Assembly: GCF_943914565.1 (NCBI RefSeq)
Contig: NZ_CALUCN010000003.1
Coordinates: 97,054 to 161,053, forward strand
Source: an uncultured Tessaracoccus sp.
GTDB taxonomy: Bacteria; Actinomycetota; Actinomycetes; Propionibacteriales; Propionibacteriaceae
DNA length: 64,000 nucleotides
Reading direction: 5' to 3'
Shown here: positions 7,264-64,000 of the stretch, piece after piece
How the letters are laid out: each line of letters opens with the position of its first letter
Position numbering within the stretch: position 1 is the stretch's first letter
Position numbers and translations under genes: made by a program
The notes under the pieces: model-generated
The model's input: the letters and a program-made list of their open reading frames with translations, nothing else
Database searches by the model: none
What the model was told of the DNA's origin: nothing

Positions 7264-7429
7264 GTACTGTGGGGATGCTCAGCCTGTAATCAGGCAGCGT
7301 GAGCTGTCCATGCAGCCTCACAAGCGGCGATCTTCGCACGTGATAGCTCTATCCATCAAAACTCAGTGGAGTTCCAGTTTACCGTATAGCGATGTTGACT
7401 CAATGCGTCATGTTTGGTCCGTTGGAGGG

Positions 7430-7765: not shown

Positions 7766-7786
7766 TGGTGCCGAAACTTGGGGCTG

Positions 7787-45055: not shown

Positions 45056-45073
45056 GCCACCGTCGGGGTGGGG

Positions 45074-46483: not shown

Positions 46484-46531
46484 GCCCCAACCATGCCCGA
46501 GCAGCGGGTCGGGTGGGTGTGAATCGCGACG

Positions 46532-49106: not shown

Positions 49107-50749
49107 CGCGGCTCACCGCATTCTGGCTGGTCCGCGCCTCGCGCGGACTGCGTCGGCAGGCCCTTGCCGTCCCAGTTGAGATAGCTGACAGACCCGGGCA
49201 CCTCTGACATGTCGTCGGCCTGCATGCGCGCCTTGGCCTCCTCGAACGTCTCGATCGCGACGGGGACCGGCTGACCGGACCCGGTGCCGAACACTGACGG
49301 GCCGCCCTCGCCCACGGGACACTCGGTTGCGAGCTCCTCGAGCGCGTGCGCCTGCTCCTTGTGTGCGGGCGGGATGACGTAGCGCTCGTCGTACTTCGCG
49401 ATGGCGAGCAGGCGGAACATCTCGCGGAGCTCCCTGCCGTTCATGCCGACGGCGCTCGCGATCTCCTCCTGCGGCTCACGTCCCAAGTTGACGTCGCGCA
49501 TGTAGGAGCGCATCGCGGCGAGCTTGTCGAGCACCATCCGCACCGGTCGGACGTCGCCCGCGGTGAAGAGGTTGGCGAGGTACTCGACGGGGATCCGCAG
49601 TGCGTCGATCGCGCCGAAGAGGTTGCCGGCGTCCTCGCCGTCGTGGCCGGTGCCCGAGAGCGCCCCGACCACGGGCGAAAGCGGCGGGATGTACCAGACC
49701 ATCGGCATGGTGCGGTACTCCGGGTGCAGCGGCAGCGCCACCTTGTAGTCCTGGATGAGTCGCAGCACCGGCGACCGCTTGGCCGCCTCGATCCAGTCCG
49801 AGGGGATGCCCTGGCATTCCGCCTCGCCCGCGATCGACGGGTCACGCGGGTCCAGGAACACGTCGCGCTGCGCCTCGTATAGGCGTTGGTCGTCCTCGGT
49901 GGACGCCGCATCGAGGACCCGATCGGCGTCGTAGAGCATGAGGCCCAGGTAGCGCAGCCGGCCGACGCAGGTCTCGGAGCACACCGTTGGGATGCCCACC
50001 TCGACGCGCGGGTAGCAGAACGTGCACTTCTCGGCCTTGCCGGTGTTGTGGTTGAAGTAGATCTTCTTGTAGGGGCAGCCCGAGATGCACATGCGCCAAC
50101 CGCGGCAGCGGTTCTGGTCGACGAGGACGATGCCGTCCTCCTCGCGCTTGTAGATCGCGCCCGACGGGCACGAGGCTGAGCACGACGGGTTGAGGCAGTG
50201 CTCGCAGATCCTCGGCAGGTAGAACATGAACGTCTGCTCGAACTCGAACTTCACCTTGTCGGCGATGCCCTTCAGCATCGGGTCCTCGTGGCCGGTGACG
50301 TAGGTGCCGCCGAGGTCGTCGTCCCAGTTCGCGCCCCACTCGGGCTTCATGGGCTTGCCGGTGAACATCGAGTGGGGACGCGCGACAGGGAAGTGCTTCT
50401 GCGCCGGCGCGCTCAGCAGGTTCTCGTAGTCGTAGGTCCATGGCTCGTAGTAGTCGGTGACCTCGGGCATCTTCGGGTTGCCGAAAATCGTGAGCAGCTT
50501 GCGGAGGCGTCCACCTCCCTTGAGCTTCAGCCGGCCGTTGGGCTTCAGCTCCCAGCCACCCTTCCAGTGGTCCTGGTCCTCGTAGCGGCGCGGGTAGCCG
50601 AGACCGGGGCGCGTCTCGACGTTGTTGAACCACACGTACTCGAGGCCGGTCCGGTTCGTCCACGCCTGCTTGCAGGTGACGGAACAGGTGTGGCAACCGA
50701 TGCACTTGTCAAGGTTCATGACCATCGCCATCTGGGCCATGATGCGCAT
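49103..50749 (-). CDS. narH: respiratory nitrate reductase beta subunit
   Basis: Four Fe-S cluster Cys motifs (CIGCHTC..., CEHCLNPSC..., CRGWRMCISGC...), high similarity to NarH throughout. Confidence 0.95.
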   Translation of the reverse strand: MRIMAQMAMVMNLDKCIGCHTCSVTCKQAWTNRTGLEYVWFNNVETRPGLGYPRRYEDQDHWKGGWELKPNGRLKLKGGGRLRKLLTIFGNPKMPEVTDYYEPWTYDYENLLSAPAQKHFPVARPHSMFTGKPMKPEWGANWDDDLGGTYVTGHEDPMLKGIADKVKFEFEQTFMFYLPRICEHCLNPSCSASCPSGAIYKREEDGIVLVDQNRCRGWRMCISGCPYKKIYFNHNTGKAEKCTFCYPRVEVGIPTVCSETCVGRLRYLGLMLYDADRVLDAASTEDDQRLYEAQRDVFLDPRDPSIAGEAECQGIPSDWIEAAKRSPVLRLIQDYKVALPLHPEYRTMPMVWYIPPLSPVVGALSGTGHDGEDAGNLFGAIDALRIPVEYLANLFTAGDVRPVRMVLDKLAAMRSYMRDVNLGREPQEEIASAVGMNGRELREMFRLLAIAKYDERYVIPPAHKEQAHALEELATECPVGEGGPSVFGTGSGQPVPVAIETFEEAKARMQADDMSEVPGSVSYLNWDGKGLPTQSARGADQPECGEPR

Positions 50750-50772
50750 GTCGATCCTCCTTCGATGGGTGG

Positions 50773-53700
50773 TCAGTACTGAACGTCTTGGGAACGACGG
50801 CGGATCATCGTGACCTCGTCGCGGTTGTTACCGGTGGGGCCGATGTAGTTGAACGCATACGCGAGTTGCGCGTAGCCGCCGATGATGTGGCTGGGCTTGA
50901 TGAGGATCCGCGTCATGGAGTTGTGAATGCCGCCGCGGCGTCCGTTCGTCTCGGTGAGCGGCACGTCGATCAGCCGGTCCTGCGAGTGGTACATGTACAC
51001 GGTGCCCTTTGGCATCCGGTGCGACACGATCGCTCGGGCAGTGACGACGCCGTTGCGATTGACGAGCTCGATCCACTCGTTGTCCTTGATGCCGGCCTTC
51101 TCGGCGTCCTCGACGCTCATCCACACCTGCTGCCCGCCACGGGAGAGGTTCTGCATGAACCAGTTGTCCTGGTACTGGGAGTGGATGGCCCACTTGAAGT
51201 GGGGGGTGAGGTAGCGCACGGACACACCGAGCTCGTTCTCGTCGCCGAGGGGCGTCTCACCGAACAGCTGGTGCATGTTGAGTGGGCCGCGGTAGGTGGG
51301 CAGGGCCTCGCCGAGTGCGAGCATCCAGTCGTGGTCGAGGTAGAAGTGCTGGCGGCCGGTGAGCGTGTGCCAAGGCTTCTTGCGCTCGACGTTGATCGTG
51401 AACGGGCTGTACCGACGTCCGCCGCTCTCCGACCCGGACCACTCCGGCGAGGTGATGACCGTCGTGGGCTGGCCGACGATCTCGTCGAACGTGACGATCT
51501 TCCCCTCGTGCTCGGCAGCGAGGTCGTGCAGCGGGGTGCCCGTGCGTCGCTCGAGGGTCTTGAAGCCCTGCGTGGCGAGGTGACCGTTCGTGGTCCCGGC
51601 GAGCGCCATGATCGTCTCCGCCACCTGGATGCCGTTGTCGAGGCGAGGCCTACCCGCCGCGACGCCGGCATCCTCGCCGCGGACACCACTGCGGGCCTTG
51701 AGGTACTCCACCGCTTGGGTGACGTCGTAGTGGACGCCCTTGGTCGCCGTGCCGGCCTTGTCCAGCACGGGGCCGACTGCGCCGTACTTCTCGCCGATGC
51801 GCGTGTAGTCGCGCTCCACGACGACGAGCTTCGGCATGGTCACGCCCGGAATCGGCTCGACCTCGCCGTGTTTCCAGTCGAGAACCGCGCCGTGCGGCGT
51901 CGCCATCGCGTCGGCGGAGTCGTGTGCGAGTGGGACCGCGACAACGTCCTTGCGGGTACCGAGGTGTGTCTTCGCGAACTCCGAGAGGCGGTCGGAGAGC
52001 CGCTGGAAGATCTCCCAGTCGGTCTTGGCCTGCCACGGCGGGTTGATCGCGGGGGTGAACGGGTGCACGAAGGGGTGCATGTCCGTGGTGTTGATGTCGT
52101 GCTTCTCGTACCACGTGGCGGCGGGAAGGATCACGTCGGACATCAGCGTCGAGCTGGTCATGCGGAAGTCGAGCGTGCAGACCATGTCGAGCTTGCCCTC
52201 GGGAGCTTTGTCGTGCCAGACGATGTCGGTGGGGCGCAGGTGCTCGGGCGCCTCGTCGGCGGTGACCGCGTGGTCGGTGCCGAGCAGGTGCTTCAGGAAA
52301 TACTCGTCGCCCTTGGCGGAGTTGCCGAACAGGTTCGCCCGCCACAGCGTGAGGGCGCGGGGCCAGTTCTCCTCCGCGTCGGGGTCCTCGACCGCGAAGC
52401 GCATCTCACCGGACTTCAGCTGGTCGACGACGTGTGGCCCGACCGCCTTCCCGGCCGCGGCTGCCTCGTCGGCGATCGCGAGCGGGTTCTTGTTGAAGGT
52501 GGGGTAGGAGGGCATCCATCCCGAACGGGCCGACTGCGCGAACAGGTCGGCGGTGGTGCGGCCCGCGAAGGCGTTGTTGCCGACCTCGCCGGCGCACAGG
52601 TCGTCGGCGCCGAACGTGTCGTGACGCCACTGGTCGGTGTTGACGTACCAGTAGCCGGTCTGGATCATCTGCCGCGGGGGACGTGTCCAGTCCAGGCCGA
52701 ACGCCATCTGCGCCCAGCCGGTGAACGGACGCGCCTTCTCCTGCCCGACGTAGTGGGCCCAGCCGCCGCCGTTGCGTCCCTGGCAACCGGTTATGGTGGT
52801 GAGCATCAGCATCGTGCGGTAGATGACGTCGGAGTGGTACCAGTGGTTGGTCCCCGCTCCCATGATGATCATCGAGCGGCCCTCGGTGTCCTCCGCGTTC
52901 TGGGCGAACTCACGGGCGATGCGCGTCACCTGGTCGGCCGGGACGTTGGTGATGGTCTCCTGCCAAGCGGGGGTGTAGGCACCCTCGGGGTCGTCGTAGC
53001 CCGTCGGCCACTCGCCGGGGAGCCCGTCGCGGGCGACACCGTACTGCGCGAGCATGAGGTCGAACACCGTCGTGACGAGGCGGTCGCCGACGCGGCGGAC
53101 GGGCACGCCCCGTCGCAGCGCGCGGACCTTGCGGGTGGTGTCGTCGAACGCCGGCAGCGCGATCTCGACGGCGTCGGCGCCGTCGCCGAGCATGCTGAGC
53201 GCGGGGCGGAGGTCACCCAGCTCGAGGTTCCACTTGCCCTCGCCCTCGTCGCCGAAGCGGTGGCCGAGCGTGCCGTGGGGGATCGCGGGCGCGCCCGTGG
53301 ACTCGTCCCACATGGCGGGCTTGAACATGGCATTCTCCGCGTCGCGCTGCGGGTTGTCGAAGTCGCCTGCTACGAGGAACTTGCCCGGCTTCCACGTGCC
53401 GTCGTCGTCCTGGTCGAGCGCGACGAGGAACGGCAGGTCCGTGTACTGCTTGCAGTACTGGTCGAAGTGGTCGACGGTGCGGTCGACGAAGAACTCACGG
53501 AGGATGACGTGCCCCATGGCCATGCCGAGCGCTGCGTCGGTGCCCGGCGCGACGGGGAGCCACTCGTCGGCGAACTTCACGTTCTCCGCGTAGTCCGGGC
53601 TCATCACGACGACCTTCTGGCCGCGGTAGCGGGCTTCGGTCATCCAGTGCGCGTCGGGGGTCCTGGTGAGGGGGACGTTGGATCCCCACATCAGGAGGTA

Positions 53701-54486
53701 CCCGGCGTTCCACCAGTCGCCCGACTCCGGTACGTCGGTCTGGTCGCCGAAGACCTGGGGGCTGGCGACGGGCAGGTCGGCGTACCAGTCGTAGAAGCTC
53801 AGCATCGAGCCGCCGATGAGGCTCGTGTAGCGGGCGCCGGAGGCGTGGGAGACCATGCTCATCGCTGGGATGGGGGAGAACCCGGCGATGCGGTCGGGGC
53901 CCCAGCGTTTGATGATGTATGTGTGCGCGGCGGCGACCATCTCGATCGCCTCGTCCCACGTCGCGCGCACCAGCCCGCCCTTGCCGCGGGCGGACTTGTA
54001 GCGTCGGGACTTCGCTTCGTCCTGGACGATGGACGCCCAGGCTACGACGGGGTCCCCGTGCTCACGTTTGGCCTCGCGGTACATCTCCAGCAGCACCCCG
54101 CGGACGTAGGGGTAGCGCACGCGGGTGGGGGAGTAGGTGTACCAAGAGAACGACGCGCCGCGCGGGCAGCCCCGCGGCTCGTACTCGGGCATGTCCGGGC
54201 CTGCCGACGGGTAGTCGGTCTCCTGCGCCTCCCACGTGATCACGCCGTCCTTGACGTAGACCTTCCACGAGCAGGACCCGGTGCAGTTCACGCCGTGGGT
54301 GGACCGGACCACCTTGTCGTAGGCCCACCGGTCGCGGTAGAACCAGTCGCCTCGTCCACCCTCGTGGGTAATGGTGCGCTTGTCGGGGGAAACCTTCGCG
54401 CGGGTGAAGAACCTTCGGGCGCCCACCAGTGCGTCGGTCAGGGGGCCGTCGAGCCCGGCGGCACGCGATTCATGGGTGTCGGTCAT
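50773..54486 (-). CDS. narG: respiratory nitrate reductase alpha subunit
   Basis: 1237 aa. N-terminal His/Cys cluster motif (HGVNCTGSCSWKVYVKDG) and bis-MGD family blocks throughout. The N-terminal 140 codons of the six-frame ORF are upstream-gene overlap. Confidence 0.95.
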   Translation of the reverse strand: MTDTHESRAAGLDGPLTDALVGARRFFTRAKVSPDKRTITHEGGRGDWFYRDRWAYDKVVRSTHGVNCTGSCSWKVYVKDGVITWEAQETDYPSAGPDMPEYEPRGCPRGASFSWYTYSPTRVRYPYVRGVLLEMYREAKREHGDPVVAWASIVQDEAKSRRYKSARGKGGLVRATWDEAIEMVAAAHTYIIKRWGPDRIAGFSPIPAMSMVSHASGARYTSLIGGSMLSFYDWYADLPVASPQVFGDQTDVPESGDWWNAGYLLMWGSNVPLTRTPDAHWMTEARYRGQKVVVMSPDYAENVKFADEWLPVAPGTDAALGMAMGHVILREFFVDRTVDHFDQYCKQYTDLPFLVALDQDDDGTWKPGKFLVAGDFDNPQRDAENAMFKPAMWDESTGAPAIPHGTLGHRFGDEGEGKWNLELGDLRPALSMLGDGADAVEIALPAFDDTTRKVRALRRGVPVRRVGDRLVTTVFDLMLAQYGVARDGLPGEWPTGYDDPEGAYTPAWQETITNVPADQVTRIAREFAQNAEDTEGRSMIIMGAGTNHWYHSDVIYRTMLMLTTITGCQGRNGGGWAHYVGQEKARPFTGWAQMAFGLDWTRPPRQMIQTGYWYVNTDQWRHDTFGADDLCAGEVGNNAFAGRTTADLFAQSARSGWMPSYPTFNKNPLAIADEAAAAGKAVGPHVVDQLKSGEMRFAVEDPDAEENWPRALTLWRANLFGNSAKGDEYFLKHLLGTDHAVTADEAPEHLRPTDIVWHDKAPEGKLDMVCTLDFRMTSSTLMSDVILPAATWYEKHDINTTDMHPFVHPFTPAINPPWQAKTDWEIFQRLSDRLSEFAKTHLGTRKDVVAVPLAHDSADAMATPHGAVLDWKHGEVEPIPGVTMPKLVVVERDYTRIGEKYGAVGPVLDKAGTATKGVHYDVTQAVEYLKARSGVRGEDAGVAAGRPRLDNGIQVAETIMALAGTTNGHLATQGFKTLERRTGTPLHDLAAEHEGKIVTFDEIVGQPTTVITSPEWSGSESGGRRYSPFTINVERKKPWHTLTGRQHFYLDHDWMLALGEALPTYRGPLNMHQLFGETPLGDENELGVSVRYLTPHFKWAIHSQYQDNWFMQNLSRGGQQVWMSVEDAEKAGIKDNEWIELVNRNGVVTARAIVSHRMPKGTVYMYHSQDRLIDVPLTETNGRRGGIHNSMTRILIKPSHIIGGYAQLAYAFNYIGPTGNNRDEVTMIRRRSQDVQY

Positions 54487-55289
54487 GCGGGAGCGCCTTT
54501 CGTCGAGGGTGGTGTGGCCCGGTGAGGGCTCGGGATGAGATCGATGGGGGTGACGGTGGTGGCGACGCAGGCCACGCCGTCGAACACGGGGGTCACGTCC
54601 AGCGAGGCGTCGGACTCGCCGAGGGCGTCGAGCATGCCGCGCAGAACGCCCTTGTGCGCGCTGCACACGAGCTCCGGGTGGGCTCGGGCGCGGTCGAGCA
54701 TCGGGCACGAGTGCAGGCGGAGCTGCGCCTCGTGGCCGCTCTTCGACGTCGAGAGCTCGGGCGCATAGCCCCACTGGTCGAGCATGTCGAGCAACGCCCC
54801 GAGCTTGCCCAGCCACTCCAGGCGGTTGGTCGCCGGGGCCGGTGGCCAAGCGTCGAACGGGTGGGGCGAGACGACCTGGTCGGCATGTTGGTTGAGCCAC
54901 GTCCGGCCGAGCTCCTCGGCATCGACGCCCTCCGGGTGGTCCAGCGCCGCGTCGATGAGCTGGGTGAAATGCCGGTACGCATCGGAGTCGAGGATCTCCG
55001 TCGACGGTGTGGCAAGCGCGCGGTAGCAGCGGCGTGGCCGTCCCACCTGGCCACGTTCGTCGTGGGAGTCGAGCAGTCCTGCGGCGAGCAGCTGGTCGAG
55101 GTGGAACCGGGCGGTGGTGACGTGCACGCCGAGCTCGTCGGCGAGCTCGGCGGCTGAGAGGCCCCGGTCGCGCGTCGAGGGGGCGTCCTGCGCGGGGACA
55201 TGGGGCAGGCGCGAGAGGATGTCGACGATCGCCTTCCTGATCGGCGATTCCAGGAGACGCAGGGTCGTGTCACTCAAATCTTCCATTTG
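54483..55289 (-). CDS. wHTH (ArsR-like) transcriptional regulator with C-terminal domain, translationally coupled to narG
   Basis: LSAAELADELGVHVTTARFHLDQLLAAGLL is a winged-HTH. Stop overlaps the narG ATG (ATGA). SD GGAGAG before the ATG at 55289. Confidence 0.65.
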   Translation of the reverse strand, partial: QMEDLSDTTLRLLESPIRKAIVDILSRLPHVPAQDAPSTRDRGLSAAELADELGVHVTTARFHLDQLLAAGLLDSHDERGQVGRPRRCYRALATPSTEILDSDAYRHFTQLIDAALDHPEGVDAEELGRTWLNQHADQVVSPHPFDAWPPAPATNRLEWLGKLGALLDMLDQWGYAPELSTSKSGHEAQLRLHSCPMLDRARAHPELVCSAHKGVLRGMLDALGESDASLDVTPVFDGVACVATTVTPIDLIPSPHRATPPSTKGAPA

Positions 55290-55306
55290 CTCTCCGCTCA
55301 GTGCAA

Positions 55307-55502
55307 TTTGGAGGAGTCGCTGCCTCTCATCAAAGCACACGGCAATGCGCGGCGCAATCCTCTAAATCCTCCAAATTTGCGTGGGGGTTTGCTGAGGTGC
55401 CCGGAGTGCAGAATGCCTTGACCGGCTGGGATTCGTGGCATAGCCTGCAAGATGAATCCGCATTTGGCGGAGGGCAATCATCTCTGAATTTGGACATCCA
55501 TG
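55307..55502. promoter_or_regulatory. narK/nar-regulator divergent promoter region with four copies of an ATTTGG(A/C)(G/C)GAG-like motif
   Basis: CAATTTGGAGGA (55307) and its reverse complement TCCTCCAAATTTG (55370). CATTTGGCGGAGGG (55464) and GAATTTGGACATCC (55489). GC is locally lower. Confidence 0.35.
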
Positions 55503-56744
55503 ACCACCAATGATGCACGCCGGGAAGCCCCGGGGGCCGTAGGGGTACTCACCCTTTCAACCATCTCGTTCACTCTCATGTTCGCCGTGTGGCTCATGTT
55601 CGGCATTCTCGGTGTGCCGATCCAGGAGGAGTTCGGGCTCACCAACCCGCAGCTCTTCTGGATCTCCGCTCTCGCGGTGCTGAACGGCTCGATGTGGCGA
55701 CTCCCGGCCGGCATGATCGCCGACCGCGTCGGTGGCAAGGTGGTCATGGTCACCTTGCTGCTCGTCGGTGCCGCTGCCTCGATCGCGGTCGCGAACGCGC
55801 AGAACTACCCCATGCTGCTCGCGCTCGCGTTCGTCGTGGGCCTCGTCGGCAACAGCTTCAGCGTCGGCGTCGCATGGAACTCCGCGTGGTTCACCGATCG
55901 CCGCAAGGGCCTGGCGCTCGGCATCTTCGGAGCGGGCAACGTCGGCGCCTCGGTCACGAAGCTGATCGGCCCCGGCATCATCGCCGCCACCGCCGGCAGC
56001 ACCTATGTCCTCGGCATCCGGGGCGGTTGGCGCCTGATTCCGGTGATCTACGCCGTGCTGCTGGTGGTCATGGCCGTCCTCACGGTCCTGCTCGTGCCGC
56101 GGGAGGACCGCAAGCCAGCCTCCGCGATGTCGATCGGCGCGATGCTCGAGCCCTTGAAGGAGCTTCGCGTCTGGCGCTTCAGCTACTACTACGTGATCGT
56201 GTTCGGCGCCTACGTCGCCTTCTCGGCCTACCTGCCCTCGTACTACGTGCAGAACTTCGACGTCTCGCTGGGCGCTGCGGCTGCGTTCACCGCGACGTTC
56301 ATCTTCCCGGCCTCCCTCCTGCGCCCGCTGGGTGGCTGGGTGAGCGACCAGTGGGGTGCGCGCAAGGCGATGTACCTCACGTTCACCGTCATGCTCGCTG
56401 CCACCGGGGTGCTCTCGATCCCGACCCTCGACGTCTGGACCTTCGCCGTGCTCGTGTTCGTCGTCGGCTGCGCGATGGGCATCGGCAAGGCCGCCGTCTA
56501 CAAGCACATCCCCAACTACTTCCCGAACCACGTCGGCTCCGTCGGCGGGCTCGTCGGCATGCTCGGCGGCCTCGGCGGATTCTTCCTGCCGATCATGTTC
56601 TCCTACGCCCAAGACGGCACCGGCCGGTGGTCGACGGCGTGGTTCATCCTATTCATGTTCACCGCCATCGCCATGGTGTGGATGCACCTGACCATCCGCG
56701 GCATGCAGCGTCGCGGCGGTGCGCTCCACCCCGACCATGTCTGA
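55503..56744 (+). CDS. narK: NarK-type MFS nitrate/nitrite transporter
   Basis: 12-TM MFS with NNP-family signature regions. ATG at 55503 by my reading (the track lists 55500). Confidence 0.85.
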   Translation, partial: TTNDARREAPGAVGVLTLSTISFTLMFAVWLMFGILGVPIQEEFGLTNPQLFWISALAVLNGSMWRLPAGMIADRVGGKVVMVTLLLVGAAASIAVANAQNYPMLLALAFVVGLVGNSFSVGVAWNSAWFTDRRKGLALGIFGAGNVGASVTKLIGPGIIAATAGSTYVLGIRGGWRLIPVIYAVLLVVMAVLTVLLVPREDRKPASAMSIGAMLEPLKELRVWRFSYYYVIVFGAYVAFSAYLPSYYVQNFDVSLGAAAAFTATFIFPASLLRPLGGWVSDQWGARKAMYLTFTVMLAATGVLSIPTLDVWTFAVLVFVVGCAMGIGKAAVYKHIPNYFPNHVGSVGGLVGMLGGLGGFFLPIMFSYAQDGTGRWSTAWFILFMFTAIAMVWMHLTIRGMQRRGGALHPDHV

Positions 56745-56780
56745 CCAGAACCCCGTGACCCTGCAAGGAGGTCGTACCCC

Positions 56781-58166
56781 ATGACCGAGAGACGTGACAC
56801 CCGCTCCGGCGAGTGGCTGCAGCACTGGAACCCGGAGGACGAGCAGAGCTGGGACAAGACGCTCGCCTGGCGCACGCTGTGGATCTCGACGTTCTCGCTC
56901 ACCATGTGCTTCGTCGCGTGGTTCCTCCCCAGCGCGCTCATCCCGAAGCTGGGCGCCATCGGATTCACCTTCACGAAGACGCAGCTGTACTGGATGGCCG
57001 CCATGCCCGGTCTCTCGGGCGGGCTGCTCCGGCTCGTCTGGATGGTGCTCCCTCCCATCATGGGCACCCGCAAGATGGTCACAGTCACCACGGGGCTGCT
57101 CGTGCTCCCGCTCATCGGCTGGGCTGTCGCCATCCAGGACCCGAGTACGCCGTACTGGCTGCTGATGCTGCTCGCGTTCCTCGCCGGCATCGGCGGTGGT
57201 GCGTTCTCGGGCTTCATGCCGTCGACGTCCTACTTCTTCCCCAAACGCCTCTCCGGCACGGCGCTGGGGCTCCAGGCCGGCATCGGCAACTTCGGTGTCT
57301 CGCTCGTGCAGCTGCTCACGCCGCTGCTCATCGGCTTCGCGATGATCGGCGCCCCGCAGGTCGTCCACGTCTCGGGGCAGCCTGAGCAGCAGGTCTGGTA
57401 CCAGAACGCCGGCTTTTTCTGGGTGCCGTTCGTGATCGTCGGCATCGTGCTCGCGTGGATGTTTCTGAAGTCGGTGCCGATCAAGGCGAACATCAAGCAG
57501 CAGTTCGACATCTTCGGCAATGCCGACACCTGGTGGATGACCCTGCTCTACATCATGACCTTCGGCACGTTCTCGGGCCTGTCGGCCCAGTTCGGTCTGT
57601 TGACCACGAACCTCTACGGATCCGGCAACGCCGACATCGTCTCAGGCTCTGGCGCGGCGGCGCAGGTGCTCATCGACGGCTACACCGTGCCCGAGCCGGC
57701 ACAGTTCGTCTTCTGGGGTGCGCTCGTCGGCGCCGGCGCCCGCGTCGTGTTCTCGCCGCTCACCGACAAGATGGGCGGCGCCATCTGGACCCTCATCTCA
57801 GGGCTCGGTCTCATCGGATCAATCGCCTTCACGATGACGGCGCTCACCCCTGACACCACGTCGGCGGCCACCCTCGAGATGGGCTTCCAGAAGTTCTTCT
57901 GGGGCATGATGCTCATCTTCCTGTTTTCGGGCATCGGCAACGCATCCACGTTCAAGCAGATGCCGATGATCTTCGAGAAGCGGCAGGCCGGTGGCGTGAT
58001 CGGGTGGACCTCGGCCATTGCCGCGTTCGGACCGTTCTTCTTCGGCGTGGGGCTGAGCTCGATCGGACCGGTCGCGTTCTACGCCGTCGGCATCCTGTTC
58101 GCGATCGGCTGCGTCGTCATCACCTGGGTGCGCTACGCACGCCCGGGCGCACCGAAGCCGAGCTGA
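56781..58166 (+). CDS. narK: NarK-type MFS nitrate/nitrite transporter (second paralogue)
   Basis: 12-TM MFS, NNP-family. Follows the first narK by 36 bp with its own SD. Confidence 0.85.
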   Translation: MTERRDTRSGEWLQHWNPEDEQSWDKTLAWRTLWISTFSLTMCFVAWFLPSALIPKLGAIGFTFTKTQLYWMAAMPGLSGGLLRLVWMVLPPIMGTRKMVTVTTGLLVLPLIGWAVAIQDPSTPYWLLMLLAFLAGIGGGAFSGFMPSTSYFFPKRLSGTALGLQAGIGNFGVSLVQLLTPLLIGFAMIGAPQVVHVSGQPEQQVWYQNAGFFWVPFVIVGIVLAWMFLKSVPIKANIKQQFDIFGNADTWWMTLLYIMTFGTFSGLSAQFGLLTTNLYGSGNADIVSGSGAAAQVLIDGYTVPEPAQFVFWGALVGAGARVVFSPLTDKMGGAIWTLISGLGLIGSIAFTMTALTPDTTSAATLEMGFQKFFWGMMLIFLFSGIGNASTFKQMPMIFEKRQAGGVIGWTSAIAAFGPFFFGVGLSSIGPVAFYAVGILFAIGCVVITWVRYARPGAPKPS

Positions 58167-58208
58167 CCGCCGGCGGGGTCGCGGGGTTCGGGTCCGCTGG
58201 GGCCGGCC

Positions 58209-58826: not shown

Positions 58827-58901
58827 GCCCCCACGCTAGACGCTCCGCGGCTTCCCAGGGTGGGGCAACGAGTGCGGGTGCGGTGCAACTACCCTTGGCA
58901 C

Positions 58902-59405
58902 ATGGCCTATCACGCGGACGCAACGGACCTTGACCAGAAGGAAGTGCTCACCTGGCAGGGCCTGGGTGACGCCACCGACGAGCTCGCCCACTCGATCGTG
59001 GACTCGGGCTTCCACCCGGAGATCATCATCGCCGTCGCCCGCGGGGGCCTGCTGCTCGCAGGAGGACTCACGTACGCACTGGGCGTGAAGCTCACCGACG
59101 CGATCAACGTCGAGTTCTACACCGACGTCAACGCCACCCTGCCCGACCCGGTCCTGCTCGCCCCGATGCTCGACACCGAGGCCATCGCCGGCAAGCAGCT
59201 CCTCGTCGTCGACGACGTGGCCGACTCCGGCCGCACGCTCGGCCTCGTCATGAAGCTGCTCCGCGGTTTCGGCGCCGACGTGCGCTCGGCCGTGCTCTAC
59301 GCCAAGCCGCGCACCGTCGTCGAGCCCGACTACGTGTGGAAGTTCACCGACCAGTGGATCGTCTTCCCCTGGTCGGCCAAGCCGCCGCTCTTGCCGCAGG
59401 GCTGA
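58902..59405 (+). CDS. phosphoribosyltransferase family protein
   Basis: PRPP-binding motif LLVVDDVADSGRT. Probable leaderless start with a TACCCT -10 box at -12..-7. Confidence 0.75.
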   Translation: MAYHADATDLDQKEVLTWQGLGDATDELAHSIVDSGFHPEIIIAVARGGLLLAGGLTYALGVKLTDAINVEFYTDVNATLPDPVLLAPMLDTEAIAGKQLLVVDDVADSGRTLGLVMKLLRGFGADVRSAVLYAKPRTVVEPDYVWKFTDQWIVFPWSAKPPLLPQG

Positions 59406-59474
59406 CCCACCGTCGGGGCGCGGTTGCGTGCGGTTCGATTCCCGATCGAGCGCGCCGGGCAGCGCCTGACTGGC

Positions 59475-59835
59475 GTGGCGAATGCGAGGCGCGCCCGCCG
59501 TCGGTGGTGGGTTTGCCAACGTTTGGTCTGGTTCGCCAATTCTGGGGGCGGTTCGCCAATGCTTGGTCCGGTTTGCCAACGCTTGGTCTGATTCGCCAAC
59601 GGTGTGCGGGTTTGCCAACGGTTCGGTCCCGTGGGCGTGCCGCGAACGTCATGCAACGTTGGCAAACCGTCACAGCGTTGGCGAACGGACCCCTTCGTTG
59701 GCGAACGGGCCCGCGGTTGGCAAACGGAGCCCGCGGTTGGCAAACGCAGCCCTCCGTTGGCAAACGGACCCCTTCGTTGGCGAACGGGCCCCTCCGTTGG
59801 CAAAGCCGCCCCACGGTTGGCAAACCCCACCCAAC
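59475..59835. repeat. phased array of about 15 ten-bp boxes at 20-bp period in two inverted arms: 6x (G)GTT(T/C)GCCAA(C/T) then 9x GTTGGC(A/G)AAC
   Basis: Arm 1 boxes start 59511, 59531, 59551, 59571, 59591 and 59610. Arm 2 boxes start 59658, 59677, 59697, 59716, 59736, 59756, 59776, 59796 and 59816. One extra arm-2-type box sits at about 59475. Period is 19-20 bp throughout. Non-coding (the period is not a multiple of 3 and all six frames are broken or garbage). Confidence 0.7.
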
Positions 59836-59923
59836 CAGTACCCACACGATGGTCCACCAGATGCGCTTCGCTGCGGGTCTACGATGGCTGCGGAACACAT
59901 TTGCCCCCGGAAAGGAGTGACGG

Positions 59924-60121
59924 ATGCCCGAGACCCGTACGTTCGACCCCTCCGAGGGCGACGACCTGGCCAAGCTGGTCCGCGACGCGCTCGGTGAGCA
60001 CGTGCGCCCCACGGAGCCCGGCTCGGATGCCGCCGCCGACCGGCTCGAGCAGCCGGACCCCGAGCCCGACGAGGCCGGCGGCGCCGCGTCGATCCTCGAC
60101 CTGCCGGTGTTCGACTTCTGA
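59924..60121 (+). CDS. small acidic hypothetical protein (65 aa)
   Basis: Strong SD (AAAGGAG) 7 nt before the ATG. Acidic, Pro-rich. Lies between the repeat array and tkt. Confidence 0.35.
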   Translation: MPETRTFDPSEGDDLAKLVRDALGEHVRPTEPGSDAAADRLEQPDPEPDEAGGAASILDLPVFDF

Positions 60122-60216
60122 ACACACCCCCGGCGCGCCATCTCGCCCTCGCAACTATCCTTGGCTGGGACGACCACGAACACTCGCCAACGACTGAGAG
60201 AGCCGAGGACACACAA

Positions 60217-62268
60217 GTGACGTTCGAATGGACCGACATCGATGCACGAGCGGTCGACACCGCCCGGGTACTCGCCGCCGACGCCGTCGAGAAGACGGGC
60301 AACGGACACCCGGGCACGCCCATCTCCATGGCGCCCGTGGCGCACCTGCTGTACCAGAAGGTGCTGCGCACGGACCCCGCCGACGACAAGTGGATCGGCC
60401 GTGACCGGTTCGTCCTCTCGGCCGGGCACGCGTCGATGCTGCAGTACGCGCAGCTCTACCTGGGCGGACTCGGCCTCGAGCTCGAGGACATCCAGTCCCT
60501 GCGCCAGTGGGGGTCGAAGACGCCCGGGCACCCGGAGTACAACCACACGAAGTTCATCGAGTGCACCACCGGCCCGCTCGGCGCCGGCGTGAGCAACGCC
60601 GTCGGCATGGCGATGGCCGCCAGGCGTCAGCGCGGCCTGTTCGAGCCGGAGGCGAAGCCGGGGGAGTCGCTGTTCGACTACACCGTCTACGTCCTCGCCG
60701 GCGACGGCTGCCTGCAGGAGGGCGTCGCGTCCGAGGCCTCGTCGCTCGCGGGCACGCAGAACCTCGGCAACCTGATCCTCATCTACGACGACAACGCCAT
60801 CTCGATCGAGGGCGACACGAACATCTCGTTCACCGAGGACGTCGCCAAGCGCTACGAGGCCTACGGCTGGCACGTCCAGGACGTCGACTGGACCAACGGC
60901 CACACCGAGTACCGCGAGGACGTCGAAGCACTGTTCAACGCGATCGAGGAGGCCAAGCGGGTCACCGACAAGCCGTCGTTCATCCACCTCCACAGCATCA
61001 TCGGCTGGCCACTGCCCAACAAGCAGGGCGACGCCGGCGTCCACGGCGCCAAGATCGGCGGCGACGAGATCTCGGCCCTGAAGGAGGTCCTCGGCTTCCC
61101 CGACGAGCCGTTCGCGATCGACCAGGACCTCGTCCGCACGACGAGGGCCAGCCTCGCCGAACGCGGCCAGGCCCTGCGCGCCGAGTGGGACGCCCGCTTC
61201 AAGGAGTGGAGCGCCGAGCACCCCGACCGCGCCGCACTGCTTGAACGCGTCCGCGCCGGCAAACTGCCCGAGGACCTCTCGCTGCCGGTGTTCGAGGAGG
61301 GCGAGCTCGCCACACGCGCCGCGTCGGGCGAGGTGCTCAATGCACTCGCGTCGCAGCTGCCCGAGCTGTGGGGCGGATCGGCCGACCTCGCCGGGTCGAA
61401 CAACACCGCGATGAAGGGCGAGCCCAGCTTCCTTCCCGAGGAGCGCCAGAGCGCGCAGTGGCGCGGCTCCGAGTACGGCCGCAACCTGCACTTCGGCGTC
61501 CGCGAGCACGCGATGGGCGGCATCCTGAACGGCATCAACCTGGCGAGCCTCACCCGTGCCTACGCGGCGACGTTCCTCGTCTTCTCCGACTACATGCGGC
61601 CCCCCGTGCGTCTCGCCGCGCTGTCCGGGATCCCCAGCATCTTCGTCTGGACCCACGACTCCGTCGGCGTCGGCGAGGACGGCCCGACGCACCAGCCGAT
61701 CGAGCACCTCGCGTCGCTGCGCGCGATCCCCGGCCTCGCGGTCGTCCGGCCCTCGGACGCCAACGAGACCTCCGTCGCGTGGGGGGAGGTGCTGCGTCGC
61801 GCCGACGCGCCGGCGGCCCTGGTCCTGTCCAGGCAGAAGCTGCGCACCGTCCCGCGTGGAGAGCGCTACGCGTCCGCCGAGGGCGTCGCGCAGGGCGCCT
61901 ACGTGCTCAGCGAGGCGTCGAGCACGCCGAAGCTCGTGCTCATCGCCACCGGCTCCGAGGTCGAGCTCGCACTCGACGCGCAGGAGCGGCTCGAGGCCGA
62001 CGGCACGCCCACTCGCGTCGTGTCGATGCCCTGCCAGGAGTGGTTCGACGAGCAGCCGCAGGCGTACCGCGACGAGGTCCTGCCCGAGGGCACCGCACGG
62101 CTCAGCATCGAGGCCGGCGTCGCCATGGGCTGGTCGAGGTACGTCGGTCGCGACGGCGGCTCGGTCTCGATCGAGCACTTCGGCGCCTCGGCCGCCGGCA
62201 CGCGTTGCTTCGAGGAGTTCGGCTTCACCGTCGACAACGTCGTGGCCAAGGCCAAGGCGCTCCTCTGA
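60217..62268 (+). CDS. tkt: transketolase
   Basis: Thiamine-pyrophosphate binding GDGCLQEGV motif, TK C-terminal domain. 683 aa. Confidence 0.95.
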   Translation: MTFEWTDIDARAVDTARVLAADAVEKTGNGHPGTPISMAPVAHLLYQKVLRTDPADDKWIGRDRFVLSAGHASMLQYAQLYLGGLGLELEDIQSLRQWGSKTPGHPEYNHTKFIECTTGPLGAGVSNAVGMAMAARRQRGLFEPEAKPGESLFDYTVYVLAGDGCLQEGVASEASSLAGTQNLGNLILIYDDNAISIEGDTNISFTEDVAKRYEAYGWHVQDVDWTNGHTEYREDVEALFNAIEEAKRVTDKPSFIHLHSIIGWPLPNKQGDAGVHGAKIGGDEISALKEVLGFPDEPFAIDQDLVRTTRASLAERGQALRAEWDARFKEWSAEHPDRAALLERVRAGKLPEDLSLPVFEEGELATRAASGEVLNALASQLPELWGGSADLAGSNNTAMKGEPSFLPEERQSAQWRGSEYGRNLHFGVREHAMGGILNGINLASLTRAYAATFLVFSDYMRPPVRLAALSGIPSIFVWTHDSVGVGEDGPTHQPIEHLASLRAIPGLAVVRPSDANETSVAWGEVLRRADAPAALVLSRQKLRTVPRGERYASAEGVAQGAYVLSEASSTPKLVLIATGSEVELALDAQERLEADGTPTRVVSMPCQEWFDEQPQAYRDEVLPEGTARLSIEAGVAMGWSRYVGRDGGSVSIEHFGASAAGTRCFEEFGFTVDNVVAKAKALL

Positions 62269-62340: not shown

Positions 62341-64000
62341 ATGGCACATCCCCTGAGCGCACTGCAGAAGCTGGTGGGCGCGAGCCCCGTCGTCCTCGAA
62401 CTCGACCTGGCGCACGGCGTCCTCGCGGCCCGGCCCGACAACCCCCTCCAGGCGTTGCAGCTCGTGAACGCCACCCGCGTCGAGACCCTCCGCGCCACGC
62501 TGCGCGACGCCGCCGGCGACGACCGCGTGCGCGGGCTCATCGTGCACGCCTCCGCCGAGCGCTTCCCGCTCGCGATCCTCGACGAGGTCGCGCTCGAGGT
62601 CGCACGCTTCGCCGAGCACAAGCCGACCGCCTGCTGGAGCGAGAGCTTCGGTGAGCTCACTCCGTCACTCGGGCTCTACGCGATGGCCACCGCCGCGCAC
62701 GAGATCTGGGTGCAGCCCACCGGCACGCTCTCGATCAGCGGCCCCGAGCTGCAGGTCGTCCTCCTGAAGGGCGGGCTCGCGAAGCTCGGCATCGAGCCGC
62801 AGTTCGGCCAGCGCCACGAGTACAAGACCGCCGCGGACCAGTTCGCCGCCGACGAGGTCACCCCCGCCAACCGCGAGATGATGACCTCGATCGTGGAGTC
62901 CCTCGTCGAGGAGGCCTGCGGGACGATCGGCGCCCGACGCGGGCTCGAGCCCGGCGCCGTCCGGGATGCCGTCGAGGCCGCACCGCTCACGCCGGAGGAC
63001 GCGCTCGAACGGGGACTCATCGACCACATCGGCTACCGCGACGAGCTCTACGAGCACGTCCTCGACGAGTGGGCGGCCACGCCGGAACACCTCGCCTACG
63101 TCAATCGCTACGCGCTGCGCCCCCGACTCTCGCGCGCGCTGGCGGGCCCCCGTCGCAAGCGCATCGGCGTCGTCGACGTCCACGGCGCGATCGTCACCGG
63201 CCGGGGCAACGCGGGCCCCGGGCGGCGCAGCGTGGGCGCGGACGTCGTCGCCGAGCAGCTGCGGCACGCCGCCGACGACGATCAGGTCGCGGCGATCCTC
63301 CTCGACGTGAACTCGCCCGGCGGCTCCGCCGTCGCCTCGGACACGATCCACCGCGCGGTGCTGCAGGCCAGCGCGGCCGGCACACCGGTCATCGCGACGA
63401 TGGGGGAGTACGCGGCCTCCGGCGGCTACTACGCGTCGATGGGGGCCGACGAGATCGTGGCGCTGCCCAGCACACTCACCGGCTCGATCGGCGTCGTCGC
63501 GGGCAAGCTCGTGACGACGGGCCTCTACGACAAGCTCGGGCTCGTGCGCGAGTCGATCACCGCCGACGAGGGTGCGGCCGCGCTGAGCGACGCCCGGCCG
63601 ATGACCGACGAGGAGTGGGCCAAGCTCGAGGCATGGCTCGACCGCGTCTACGACGACTTCGTCCGAAAGGCCGCCGACGGCCGCGCCATGAGCGTGGACG
63701 AGCTCGAGCCGCTCGCGCGCGGCCGGGTGTGGACCGGGGCCCAAGCGCTCGACCTGGGCCTCGTCGACCACGTGGGCGGACGTGGCCGTGCCATCGAGCG
63801 TGCCGCGTCGCTCGCGAACCTCGAGCCCGACGAGGTCGACGTCGTGCCCGTGGGGCCGCGCGGGATGCTGGCTCGGTTCCGGCCCGCGCAGTCCTCGGCG
63901 GCGCTCGCCGGCGTCCGGCGTCGTGCCGTGACGCCCGAGGCGCTGTTCGCCGGCGCGCTCGAGCACCTCGGCGTCGCCGCCCCCGGGGTGCTCTCGATGC
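62341..64000 (+). CDS. sppA: signal peptide peptidase SppA (S49 family), 3' partial
   Basis: Two S49 domains (GGYYASMGADEIVALPSTLTGSIGV, catalytic Ser region). The ORF runs off the window end, so it is absent from the supplied plus-strand track. Confidence 0.85.
   Translation, partial: MAHPLSALQKLVGASPVVLELDLAHGVLAARPDNPLQALQLVNATRVETLRATLRDAAGDDRVRGLIVHASAERFPLAILDEVALEVARFAEHKPTACWSESFGELTPSLGLYAMATAAHEIWVQPTGTLSISGPELQVVLLKGGLAKLGIEPQFGQRHEYKTAADQFAADEVTPANREMMTSIVESLVEEACGTIGARRGLEPGAVRDAVEAAPLTPEDALERGLIDHIGYRDELYEHVLDEWAATPEHLAYVNRYALRPRLSRALAGPRRKRIGVVDVHGAIVTGRGNAGPGRRSVGADVVAEQLRHAADDDQVAAILLDVNSPGGSAVASDTIHRAVLQASAAGTPVIATMGEYAASGGYYASMGADEIVALPSTLTGSIGVVAGKLVTTGLYDKLGLVRESITADEGAAALSDARPMTDEEWAKLEAWLDRVYDDFVRKAADGRAMSVDELEPLARGRVWTGAQALDLGLVDHVGGRGRAIERAASLANLEPDEVDVVPVGPRGMLARFRPAQSSAALAGVRRRAVTPEALFAGALEHLGVAAPGVLSM

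What the first reader, a model, noticed from the sequence alone, without database searches (positions are those of the whole stretch)
59475..59835. Phased 20-bp-periodic array of about 15 TTYGCCAAY / GTTGGCRAAC boxes forming a 360-bp two-armed inverted structure upstream of tkt
Six boxes of type (G)GTT(T/C)GCCAA(C/T) sit at exactly 20-bp spacing. After a roughly 25-bp centre, nine boxes of the reverse-complement type GTTGGC(A/G)AAC follow at the same spacing. The box core GCCAACGTTGGC is itself palindromic. A 20-bp period puts all boxes on one DNA face, as expected for cooperative binding or oligomerisation of a DNA-binding protein (iteron- or ParB/nucleoid-protein-like). The two arms could extrude as a cruciform, or fold as a long RNA hairpin if transcribed. 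It is not a CRISPR array because there are no spacers. It is not coding, and it does not match any repeat class I recognise (REP, MIRU, PHO box, DnaA box). It sits in an 810-bp gap between a PRTase gene and tkt, next to a small acidic ORF.
Basis: seen in the sequence. Interest (0 to 1): 0.85.

Follow-up and report, generated by a model that had tools for sequence, protein, structure and literature searches.

The report
Dispersed two-armed 20-bp box-array repeat
The 15-box structure upstream of tkt is real and non-coding, but it is one copy of an undescribed repeat family found at five or more intergenic sites in this skin Tessaracoccus genome, and its 10-bp boxes are conserved like protein-binding sites.

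Summary
There are 6 GTTYGCCAAC boxes and 9 inverted GTTGGCRAAC boxes, spaced 19-20 bp apart, at 59511-59825. They are non-coding and far exceed chance.

The tkt-specific reading does not hold. The window comes from an uncultured human-skin Tessaracoccus. The same architecture occurs at four or more other intergenic loci of that species: yibE/F, serB/M20, antitoxin/tRNA and gltA/PTS. Each copy has a box arm, a conserved core of about 110-150 bp where orientation flips, an inverted arm and a C-rich tail.

A core profile built without the window copy hits it at E = 1.5e-15. The sister species lacks the array at tkt and at the tRNA locus, but keeps it at two other loci.

Arms gain and lose whole 20-bp units in one arm only. 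Boxes diverge less than the rest of the array between species (3.9% vs 13.4%, p = 3e-4). This points to sequence-specific protein recognition rather than hairpin selection.

No Rfam, plasmid, phage or literature match was found. No consistent target-site duplications, no autonomous partner and no neighbouring Rep/Par/transposase gene were found.

Best reading: phased docking sites for an unidentified oligomerising DNA-binding protein, carried on a dispersed palindromic repeat. A selfish MITE/foldback-like element is the main rival.

The parts
59497..59828 (.). Whole segment present in the window but absent from the orthologous tkt-upstream region of the sister species (332 bp). It lies between GCGAGGCGCGCCC and ACCC(A/C)ACCAG.
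   Evidence: Reading of window against L120. The junction is ambiguous by about 3-4 bp. At most a 3-bp CCC direct repeat is present.
59497..59510 (.). G-rich lead-in GCCGTCGGTGGTGG. It is roughly the reverse complement of the C-rich tail on the other side.
   Evidence: Sequence reading. The CCGCCGTCGG motif was found at 59495.
59511..59619 (+). Left arm: 6 units of GTTYGCCAAY plus a 9-10 nt G/T-rich spacer. Box starts are 59511, 59531, 59551, 59571, 59591 and 59610.
   Evidence: TRF period 20.
59620..59657 (.). Centre where box orientation flips (38 bp). It is a diverged version of the family core. It keeps GCGAACGT...AACGTTGGCAAACCGTCACAGCGTTGGC but lacks the canonical CTATCCATGTTCGCCAACGCTCTATCGCAGGCGAAC stem-loop.
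   Evidence: Alignment A3.
59536..59712 (.). Stretch matched by the family-core profile, which was built from the other loci only.
   Evidence: nhmmer E = 1.5e-15 on the - strand and 6.8e-15 on the + strand (59568-59701). The core is quasi-palindromic, so its orientation is undefined.
59658..59825 (-). Right arm: 9 units of GTTGGCRAAC plus a 9-10 nt C-rich spacer, which are the same boxes on the opposite strand. Eight of the nine boxes are perfect. The arm contains a 79-80 bp (4-unit) internal duplication.
59826..59866 (.). C-rich tail CCCACCCAACCAGTACCCACA followed by CGATGGTCCACCAGATGC (59847-59864). The motif CGAYGRTGGYYCACCAGCTGC follows the right arm at the yibE/F and serB copies too, and partly at gltA. 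The sister species keeps a diverged version at tkt despite lacking the array.
   Evidence: Alignment A2.
59880..59885 (+). Context only: candidate -10 hexamer TACGAT for the small-ORF/tkt transcript. It is identical in the array-less sister species, so the array sits just upstream of a putative promoter.
   Evidence: Inference from reading the sequence. The consensus promoter scan found nothing.
58902..59405 (+). Context: phosphoribosyltransferase gene, the upstream neighbour.
   Evidence: Pfam PF00156. Called as a 167-aa gene in same-species contigs.
59924..60121 (+). Context: small acidic 65-aa ORF. It is conserved upstream of tkt in Tessaracoccus whether or not the array is present.
60217..62268 (+). 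Context: transketolase gene.
   Evidence: Pfam PF00456, PF02779 and PF22613.

Best explanation
The structure is one copy of a lineage-specific, dispersed intergenic repeat family of an uncultured human-skin Tessaracoccus.

Each copy has the same parts in order: an arm of GTTYGCCAAC boxes every 20 +/- 1 bp; a conserved quasi-palindromic core of about 110-150 bp where box orientation flips; an arm of the same boxes on the other strand; and a C-rich tail ending in CGAYGRTGGYYCACCAGCTGC.

Shown:
- The family exists at five or more loci in one genome.
- Arms expand and contract by whole 20-bp units.
- The 10-bp boxes are held nearly invariant while spacers drift at or above the neutral rate.

Inferred:
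- The boxes are recognition sites for a sequence-specific protein. It is probably a dimeric dsDNA binder, because the box is a GTTnGCnAAC quasi-palindrome.
- The protein loads side by side at two-helical-turn intervals, building two oppositely oriented protein-DNA filaments that meet at the core.
- The arrays therefore act as multi-site docking platforms. Possible roles are organising or insulating DNA, or acting as barriers.

The array is not a tkt-specific operator. The tkt copy has all 15 core octamers intact but a diverged centre. Any effect on tkt comes from its position just upstream of the putative promoter. The family presumably spread by duplication or transposition in the past.
For: Observation.

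Species identity of all copies (uncultured Tessaracoccus sp.).

Other copies:
- yibE/F: L136/L254 at 3543-3887, 4f+10r boxes.
- serB/M20: L258 at 7311-7680, 10f+6r.
- RHH antitoxin/tRNA: L262 at 7692-7896, 4f+5r.
- gltA/bglG-PTS: L216 at 742-1126, 10f+7r.
.

Homology beyond the boxes:
- Core alignment A3.
- Tail alignment A2.
- A core HMM built without the window copy hits the window at E = 1.5e-15.

Constraint on boxes:
- Across 93 units, TT-Y-GCCAA is essentially invariant.
- In the window, pairwise identity is 0.90 for boxes against 0.46 for spacers.
- Between the two species at two orthologous arrays, 7 of 180 box columns differ against 52 of 387 non-box columns (Fisher p = 3e-4). Third codon positions of flanking genes differ by 5-10%.

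Phasing: 72 of 81 neighbour distances are 19-21 bp, and the other 9 are 39-41 bp.

The array is absent from tkt upstream in the sister and in distant species, so tkt does not require it.
Against: - No binding protein has been identified.
- No DNA-binding, Rep, Par or transposase gene neighbours any copy consistently.
- The box-versus-spacer contrast rests on two orthologous pairs and on within-array comparisons. Gene conversion among units could contribute.
- Presence/absence differences between sister species at two loci, and shared core and tail sequences, also fit a purely selfish mobile element.
Confidence: 0.55

Rival explanations
1. Selfish non-autonomous transposon (MITE-like or foldback-like). 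The phased boxes are subterminal transposase-binding sites, and the only 'function' is mobility. The tkt copy is a passenger insertion.
For: - There are five or more dispersed intergenic copies sharing core and tail, which indicates common descent.
- The array is present in the window species but absent in the sister at tkt and at the tRNA-proximal locus. At the tRNA locus the sister carries integrase and rve genes instead.
- Copies sit among other repeats (hairpin elements) and break metagenome assemblies.
- An 11-bp direct repeat, CCCGACGGTGG, flanks the yibE/F array in the sister.
Against: - No consistent TSD or sharp terminal inverted repeat was found in five copies.
- No autonomous partner and no transposase gene lies near any copy.
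- 6-10 sites per arm, with variable number, far exceeds the multi-site transposon ends I know of. From memory, Tn7, Mu and Tn402 have 2-4 sites per end.
- Boxes are conserved relative to spacers at orthologous, immobile copies in two species. Neutral decay of a dead MITE would not produce this.
- The sister species keeps a diverged tail at tkt, which suggests the array was lost there rather than newly inserted in the window lineage.
Confidence: 0.2
2. Neutral by-product: a slippage-amplified palindromic minisatellite with no sequence-specific function.
For: - Whole-unit indels, multi-unit block duplications (60- and 79-bp periods) and degenerate outer units show rapid slippage dynamics.
- The regions also hold other tandem and hairpin repeats.
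Against: - Slippage copies box and spacer alike, yet boxes are about 90-100% conserved and spacers about 46%.
- Between-species divergence is 3.4-fold lower in boxes.
- The boxes are AT-richer than the 70% GC background, so they would be expected to decay, not persist.
Confidence: 0.1
3. RNA-level element. When transcribed, the arms fold into a long hairpin that acts as a terminator, stabiliser or RNase III target, or the core encodes a small RNA.
For: - The region folds far better than shuffles: z = -6.45 on the + strand and -5.92 on the - strand as RNA, and -7.6 as DNA.
- In canonical copies the core can form a 15-bp stem with a 14-nt loop.
- Three copies lie after co-directional genes.
Against: - There is no strand preference in folding.
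- No Rfam match was found, and no terminator-like T-run.
- Arms are unequal in every copy (6/9, 4/10, 10/6, 4/5, 10/7), and orthologues change one arm without compensation in the other.
- Spacers, which would have to pair, are not conserved or complementary outside the inner three units.
Confidence: 0.08
4. One reading: a dedicated operator or iteron array that regulates tkt (or the small ORF-tkt operon) through a cooperative repressor or activator.
For: The array ends about 55 bp upstream of a candidate -10 (TACGAT, 59880-59885) and 99 bp upstream of the small ORF. The boxes look like protein sites.
Against: - The same element sits next to unrelated genes: yibE/F, M20 peptidase, tRNA/antitoxin and bglG-PTS.
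- It is absent upstream of tkt in the sister species, which has an otherwise near-identical promoter region, and in three more distant Tessaracoccus lineages.
Confidence: 0.05

Closest known systems
BOX elements of Streptococcus pneumoniae, and MITE-like modular intergenic repeats generally (from my own knowledge, not tested with a tool)
   Same: Short, non-coding, dispersed in intergenic regions. Modular, with a variable number of tandem internal units, complementary outer parts that give a large stem-loop, and presence/absence differences between close relatives.
   Different: Here the tandem units are 20 bp, each with a 10-bp invariant box. They form two opposed arms around a conserved core. 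The variable part is the arms themselves. No sequence similarity, and a different phylum.
REP/BIME clusters of enterobacteria and REPINs (own knowledge)
   Same: Extragenic palindromic units occurring in clusters, bound by host proteins (gyrase, IHF) and by RAYT transposases, often just downstream of genes.
   Different: In BIMEs the units alternate in orientation. Here the units are direct within an arm and flip only once. No RAYT was looked for or found. Known copy number is five or more, not hundreds.
Iteron arrays and plasmid centromeres: pSK41 parC (20-bp tandem repeats bound by RHH ParR), R1 parC (5+5 iterons), P1 incC/incA (5+9 iterons) (own knowledge)
   Same: Phased direct repeats of 17-22 bp, with a conserved recognition core and variable filler. 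The number of sites (5-10 per block) and the two-helical-turn spacing imply side-by-side cooperative loading.
   Different: The arrays are chromosomal and occur at several loci. No adjacent rep or par gene was found. The blocks are inverted and abut a conserved core instead of flanking a promoter or gene. No blastn similarity to any plasmid or phage record.
Foldback (FB) transposons of Drosophila and other eukaryotes (own knowledge; the literature search returned only eukaryotic cases)
   Same: Long inverted arms that are themselves built of short tandem subrepeats. Arm lengths are unequal and variable between copies. Many copies are non-coding.
   Different: FB elements are eukaryotic, have TSDs and, in some copies, a transposase. 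None of these was found here.
Opposed polar protein-DNA barriers such as Tus-Ter or RTP-Ter fork traps, and KOPS converging on dif (own knowledge; functional analogy only)
   Same: Oriented sites arranged in two blocks of opposite polarity around a central point.
   Different: The scale is about 350 bp rather than a chromosome. No evidence here for any barrier activity or translocase.

Membership tests
MITE (miniature inverted-repeat transposable element) | Short (<~600 bp) and non-coding | tested here: met
   315-385 bp arrays. GC3 of crossing ORFs is 0.61-0.71 against 0.93-0.95 in genes.
MITE (miniature inverted-repeat transposable element) | Multiple dispersed copies in one genome | tested here: met
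   Five or more loci of the same species. The total is unknown because the scans were truncated.
MITE (miniature inverted-repeat transposable element) | Defined terminal inverted repeats | tested here: inconclusive
   The arms are inverted, but the outer units degenerate gradually. The tail occurs on one side only.
MITE (miniature inverted-repeat transposable element) | Target-site duplications flanking copies | tested here: not met
   No shared direct repeat of 8 bp or more abuts the arrays in 6 of 7 copies. The only case is an 11-bp repeat at yibE/F in the sister species. At the tkt junction there is at most a CCC repeat.
MITE (miniature inverted-repeat transposable element) | Related autonomous element encoding a transposase with the same ends | not tested
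   None was seen in about 200 kb of Tessaracoccus DNA examined. Testing this properly needs the whole genome.
REP/BIME | Clusters of palindromic units in alternating orientation | tested here: not met
   Units are direct within each arm, and orientation flips once.
REP/BIME | Associated RAYT (IS200/IS605-like) gene in the genome | not tested
   The whole genome is not available to the tools.
Iteron-type replication origin or plasmid partition centromere | Phased tandem direct repeats of about 17-22 bp with a conserved core | tested here: met
   Spacing of 19-21 bp in 72 of 81 intervals; box invariant.
Iteron-type replication origin or plasmid partition centromere | Adjacent cognate rep or par gene, or location on a plasmid or phage | tested here: not met
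   The neighbours are housekeeping genes. No blastn match in the plasmid or phage collections.
CRISPR array | Repeats of 23 bp or more separated by unique spacers of similar length, in one orientation, with cas genes | tested here: not met
   10-bp boxes, 9-10 bp related spacers, and two orientations.
Known structured RNA (Rfam) | Match to a covariance model at gathering score | tested here: not met
   Best hits were 13-24 bits against gathering scores of 42-96.
Gene-specific operator of tkt | Conserved upstream of tkt in relatives and unique to that locus | tested here: not met
   Absent in the sister species and in three more distant Tessaracoccus lineages. Present at four other loci.

The most novel reading that the evidence does not exclude
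The arrays could be a previously unrecognised class of chromosomal protein-docking element. In this reading, several loci per genome carry two opposed, phased iteron filaments around a conserved core, maintained by host-level selection. They would nucleate a higher-order nucleoprotein complex that is centromere-like, acts as an insulator or replication/transcription barrier, or directs a translocase towards the core. Alternatively, they could be the first prokaryotic counterpart of Foldback transposons, with arms built of transposase-binding subrepeats.
Probability: 0.2. Interest if true: 0.8.

Novelty: new variant of a known kind. Interest (0 to 1): 0.55.

Why it matters
If the boxes are docking sites for an oligomerising protein, this family gives a compact natural substrate of 15-17 phased sites, in several chromosomal copies. 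That substrate could be used to fish out an unknown actinobacterial DNA-binding factor. It could also be used to ask what opposed protein filaments do next to promoters.

The family also shows a mode of repeat evolution: whole-unit turnover with box-specific constraint. Such turnover could rewire promoter-proximal DNA between sister species of a human-skin commensal.

There are two practical points. The arrays break metagenome assemblies. They should also not be annotated as tkt regulatory sites, or as genes, as happened at one locus.

Tried and rejected
1. Genome-collection scan with two 10-mer boxes. The pattern was too loose.

It did deliver the Tessaracoccus copies. Many low-GC arrays with TTGGCAAA-type boxes (L217, L187, L149, L194; viral L130-L132) were judged to be a selection effect of the pattern. 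None has the family core.

3. blastn of the window copy and of the fuller serB copy against plasmids and phages: no match.

4. Rfam on the window copy and on the serB copy: only sub-threshold hairpin noise.

5. Literature searches by box sequence, by genus, and by concept (iteron-like, foldback/MITE): nothing relevant.

6. Searching the protein database with the translated array, hoping to find spurious ORFs called over other arrays: no hit.

7. TSD search: no consistent duplication.

8. I first thought all copies had the same orientation relative to the downstream gene. I withdrew this because the core is quasi-palindromic and the window copy scores equally on both strands.

9. Promoter reading of the boxes (TTGGCA resembles a -35 hexamer): rejected, because no -10 lies at the right distance and the consensus scan found none.

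10. Resemblances to PHO boxes (GTTCACC, 11-bp period), PurR/LacI half-sites (GCAAACG), AdpA and GlnR boxes, all recalled from memory: rejected on spacing and arrangement.

11. RHH antitoxin gene about 420 bp from the L262 array: considered as a possible binder, but it is a typical toxin-antitoxin component and is absent from the other loci.

Full report
**1. The observation**

Reading 58900-60400 and a regex scan show six TTYGCCAA boxes starting at 59512, 59532, 59552, 59572, 59592 and 59611. Nine TTGGCRAA boxes start at 59659, 59678, 59698, 59717, 59737, 59757, 59777, 59797 and 59817. The spacings are 19-20 bp.

Only one further TTYGCCAA exists in the 64-kb window, at 17370. GTTGGCRAAC with up to 1 mismatch occurs 24 times against 5.7 +/- 2.3 in shuffles, and 15 of those hits are in the array. 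Tandem Repeats Finder reports period 20 in both arms, plus 60- and 79-bp super-periods. The repeat finder reports inverted arms at 71-79% complementarity.

ORFs that cross the array have GC3 of 0.61-0.71, whereas PRTase, the small ORF and tkt have 0.93-0.95. Gene callers left the gap empty in same-species contigs.

- The centre is 38 bp.
- Spacing is 19-20 bp.
- The 12-mer GCCAACGTTGGC is not present.
- Each 10-bp box is a quasi-palindrome, GTTnGCnAAC.

**2. Where the window comes from, and the orthologous locus**

The 65-aa ORF next to the array is found unchanged on 21 contigs, mostly from human-skin metagenomes. Public sources name it as from 'uncultured Tessaracoccus sp.'. Eight same-species contigs carry an identical 518-bp PRTase-to-ORF spacer.

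The sister species (small ORF 85% identical; locus L120) has the same genes but a 280-bp spacer with no box at all. Comparison places a 332-bp extra segment in the window at 59497-59828, between GCGAGGCGCGCCC and ACCC(A/C)ACCAG. At most a CCC repeat marks the junctions.

More distant Tessaracoccus lineages have a real gene of about 190 aa in that slot, with a signal peptide and a C-terminal anchor, and again no boxes. The array is therefore not a conserved feature of tkt upstream regions.

**3. It is a dispersed family**

It nevertheless returned high-GC contigs with the same two-armed design. Exact-protein look-ups assign all of them to the same uncultured Tessaracoccus sp.. With context fetched, the loci are:

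| Locus | Copy | Position | Boxes (forward + reverse) |
|---|---|---|---|
| tkt | window | 59511-59825 | 6f + 9r |
| rhomboid / yibE-F | L254 | 3543-3887 | 4f + 10r |
| rhomboid / yibE-F, sister species | L253 | not recorded | 7f + 8r |
| serB / M20 peptidase | L258 | 7311-7680 | 10f + 6r |
| serB / M20 peptidase, sister species | L260 | not recorded | 4f + 5r |
| RHH antitoxin / tRNA | L262 | 7692-7896 | 4f + 5r |
| citrate synthase / bglG-PTS | L216 | 742-1126 | 10f + 7r |

At the antitoxin/tRNA locus the array is absent in the sister (L263), which has integrase and rve genes there. At the citrate synthase locus the array is also seen in L264.

Several short-read contigs end inside arrays (L138, L145, L232, L264).

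The copies share more than boxes:
- A conserved core of about 110-150 bp, GTTCGCCAACGCTATCCATGTTCGCCAACGCTCTATnGCAGGCGAACrTGGATAG...AACGTTGGCAAACCGTCATAGCGTTGGC (alignment A3).
- A C-rich tail ending in CGAYGRTGGYYCACCAGCTGC (alignment A2).

A profile of the core built without the window copy hits the window at 59536-59712 with E = 1.5e-15. It hits nothing outside Tessaracoccus among the 265 loci held. The core is quasi-palindromic, and the window copy scores alike on both strands, so I make no claim about orientation.

The window copy keeps the right half of the core but has a diverged centre. The sister species retains a diverged tail at tkt. This hints that the array was lost there rather than gained in the window lineage. 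Both directions remain possible.

**4. How the arrays evolve**

Across seven copies, neighbour distances are distributed as follows:

| Distance (bp) | Count |
|---|---|
| 19 | 19 |
| 20 | 48 |
| 21 | 5 |
| 39-41 (a decayed box in between) | 9 |

In 93 units, TT-Y-GCCAA is essentially invariant. Position +10 is mostly G and position +12 mostly T. The rest of the spacer is only compositionally biased.

In the window, mean pairwise identity is 0.90 for boxes (0.94 without the Y position) and 0.46 for spacers. The random expectation for spacers is 0.35.

Between the two species, orthologous arrays differ by whole 20-bp units in one arm without compensation in the other. Box columns differ at 7 of 180 positions and non-box columns at 52 of 387 (Fisher p = 3e-4). 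Third codon positions of flanking genes differ by 5-10%.

Slippage or a dead mobile element would treat box and spacer alike. Selection for a hairpin would also constrain spacers and keep the arms equal. Neither fits. Sequence-specific recognition of the boxes is the simplest reading.

**5. What it is not**

- Not a known RNA: no Rfam family at either the window or the serB copy.
- No promoter-like or terminator-like consensus.
- No blastn similarity to any plasmid or phage record.
- No paper in the library mentions the boxes or such arrays in this genus.
- Folding is much better than shuffles on both strands, as expected for any inverted repeat, with no strand preference.
- The window is ordinary chromosome: peptidases, ABC and MFS transporters, the nar operon, alkaline phosphatase, ArsA and tkt. 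No Rep, Par or transposase gene is present. Neighbours of the other copies are likewise unrelated housekeeping genes.
- No consistent target-site duplication was found.

**6. Mechanism**

Shown:
- A dispersed family of two-armed, phased box arrays.
- Unit turnover.
- Box-specific constraint.

Inferred:
- The boxes are docking sites for a sequence-specific protein. It is probably dimeric, given the GTTnGCnAAC symmetry.
- The protein binds at two-turn intervals. At 20 bp rather than 21 bp per unit, successive sites drift by about 17 degrees. This would wrap a filament into a gentle superhelix, as in plasmid ParR-parC complexes (from my own knowledge).
- The two arms would carry filaments of opposite polarity meeting at the core.

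What the complex does cannot be decided here. It could insulate or modulate adjacent promoters, organise DNA, block polymerases, or serve transposition.

For tkt the array sits from about -55 upstream of a candidate -10 (TACGAT, 59880-59885). That hexamer is identical in the array-less sister, so tkt expression does not depend on the array.

**7. Rivals**

- The main rival is a selfish MITE- or foldback-like element whose boxes bind a transposase (0.2). It is supported by dispersal, shared core and tail, and presence/absence differences. It is weakened by the lack of TSDs, the lack of an autonomous partner, and the conservation of boxes at orthologous copies.
- Neutral minisatellite: 0.1.
- RNA hairpin or small RNA: 0.08.
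- tkt-specific operator: 0.05.

**8. Comparison and novelty**

The element works most like an iteron or centromere array (phased sites with cooperative loading). It is distributed like a REP, BOX or MITE-type intergenic repeat. Its arm-of-subrepeats anatomy resembles eukaryotic Foldback elements.

It fails defining tests for each of these:
- No adjacent rep or par gene, and not on a plasmid.
- Units do not alternate in orientation.
- No TSD.

I therefore file it as a new variant of a known kind, a dispersed palindromic intergenic repeat. It is apparently undescribed and so far seen only in two sister skin Tessaracoccus species.

Limits:
- Both large scans were truncated.
- Copy number and wider distribution are unknown.
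- No binder has been identified.

Noticed in passing
L258 7037-7108 and 7214-7285; L254 3415-3486; L262 7562-7633; L216 ~1265-1340; L260 6970-7041 and 7173-7244; L264 252-323: A second repeat family, a hairpin element of about 70-80 bp (GCACGAAACGCCGTG ... CACGGCGTTTCGTGC), lies within 20-150 bp of the box arrays at four of the five other loci. It is absent from the 64-kb window (0 hits for CACGAAACGCCG with up to 1 mismatch). It looks like a REP-like or MITE-like family of its own.
   Followed up: partly
L253 1-60 and L265 1-60 (sister MAG GCA_029984135.1): Two different contigs of the sister MAG begin with the same 55 nt (ACAACACCCTCCAAGTCCAAATGATGTTGCGACCACCCC...), placed inside the loop of the hairpin element. 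This suggests an insertion sequence that targets these hairpins, as IS110/IS1111 elements target palindromic repeats (from my own knowledge).
   Followed up: no
L120 2741-2805: At the tkt locus the sister species, which lacks the box array, has its own palindromic insert of about 65 bp (GGGTGACACATACCGGG...CCCCGTATGTGTCACGC) that the window lacks. The same spacer has collected different palindromic elements in the two species.
   Followed up: no
window 59407-59419, 45057-45069, 39071; L258 6863; L260 6863: The motif (TGA)(G/C)CCACCGTCGGGG recurs immediately after stop codons of several genes. Its reverse complement CCCGACGGTGG recurs to the right of the arrays. It may be a shared terminator stem or another short repeat.
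   Followed up: partly
window 59924-60121: A small acidic 65-aa ORF with a strong RBS (GGAAAGGAG) and GC3 of 0.94 sits directly upstream of tkt. Homologues of 58-69 aa are found only in Tessaracoccus/Propionibacteriaceae, always before tkt. No Pfam family.
   Followed up: partly
L121 2374-2940; L124 2326-2946; L127 2413-2988: More distant Tessaracoccus lineages carry a gene of about 190 aa, with a signal peptide and a C-terminal membrane anchor and no Pfam match, between PRTase and the small ORF. It has been lost in the window species and its sister, and repeats now occupy the site.
   Followed up: no
window ~46500-58170: In relatives the beta-CASP/RMMBL gene lies within two genes of SIMPL-PRTase (L121, L124). 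In the window, about 11.7 kb carrying the respiratory nitrate reductase genes (narG/H/I-like) and two MFS transporters lies between them. This is a lineage-specific insertion or rearrangement.
   Followed up: no
L217 120-500; L187 2310-2440; L131 8110-8230 and L132 2080-2150; L054 150-330; L091 5060-5260; L066 1030-1290: Unrelated, mostly low-GC metagenome, viral and Bacteroidota contigs hold non-coding arrays of 19-20 bp period with TTGGCAAA/TTTGCCAA-type boxes. Some have an orientation switch (L217, L187). Two viral contigs share nearly the same unit (TTTGGCAAAACGT[A/C]AGTGCC). This is probably a selection effect of the search pattern, but it was not examined further.
   Followed up: partly
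L258 6900-7010: A further tandem repeat, GGCGGGGCGTCCCCGGGTGGTTT (about 23 bp, three copies), lies in the same serB-M20 spacer. These spacers accumulate several repeat types.
   Followed up: no
L262 7495-8274: A 259-aa 'gene' with no Pfam hit was called by the public annotation straight across the hairpin element and the box array. It is almost certainly spurious.
   Followed up: no
window 62665-63966 (- strand ORF, 433 aa): This long ORF has no Pfam hit and is probably spurious. In same-species contigs a 560-aa Peptidase_S49 gene on the + strand starts about 70 bp after tkt, and it would run off the end of the window.
   Followed up: partly
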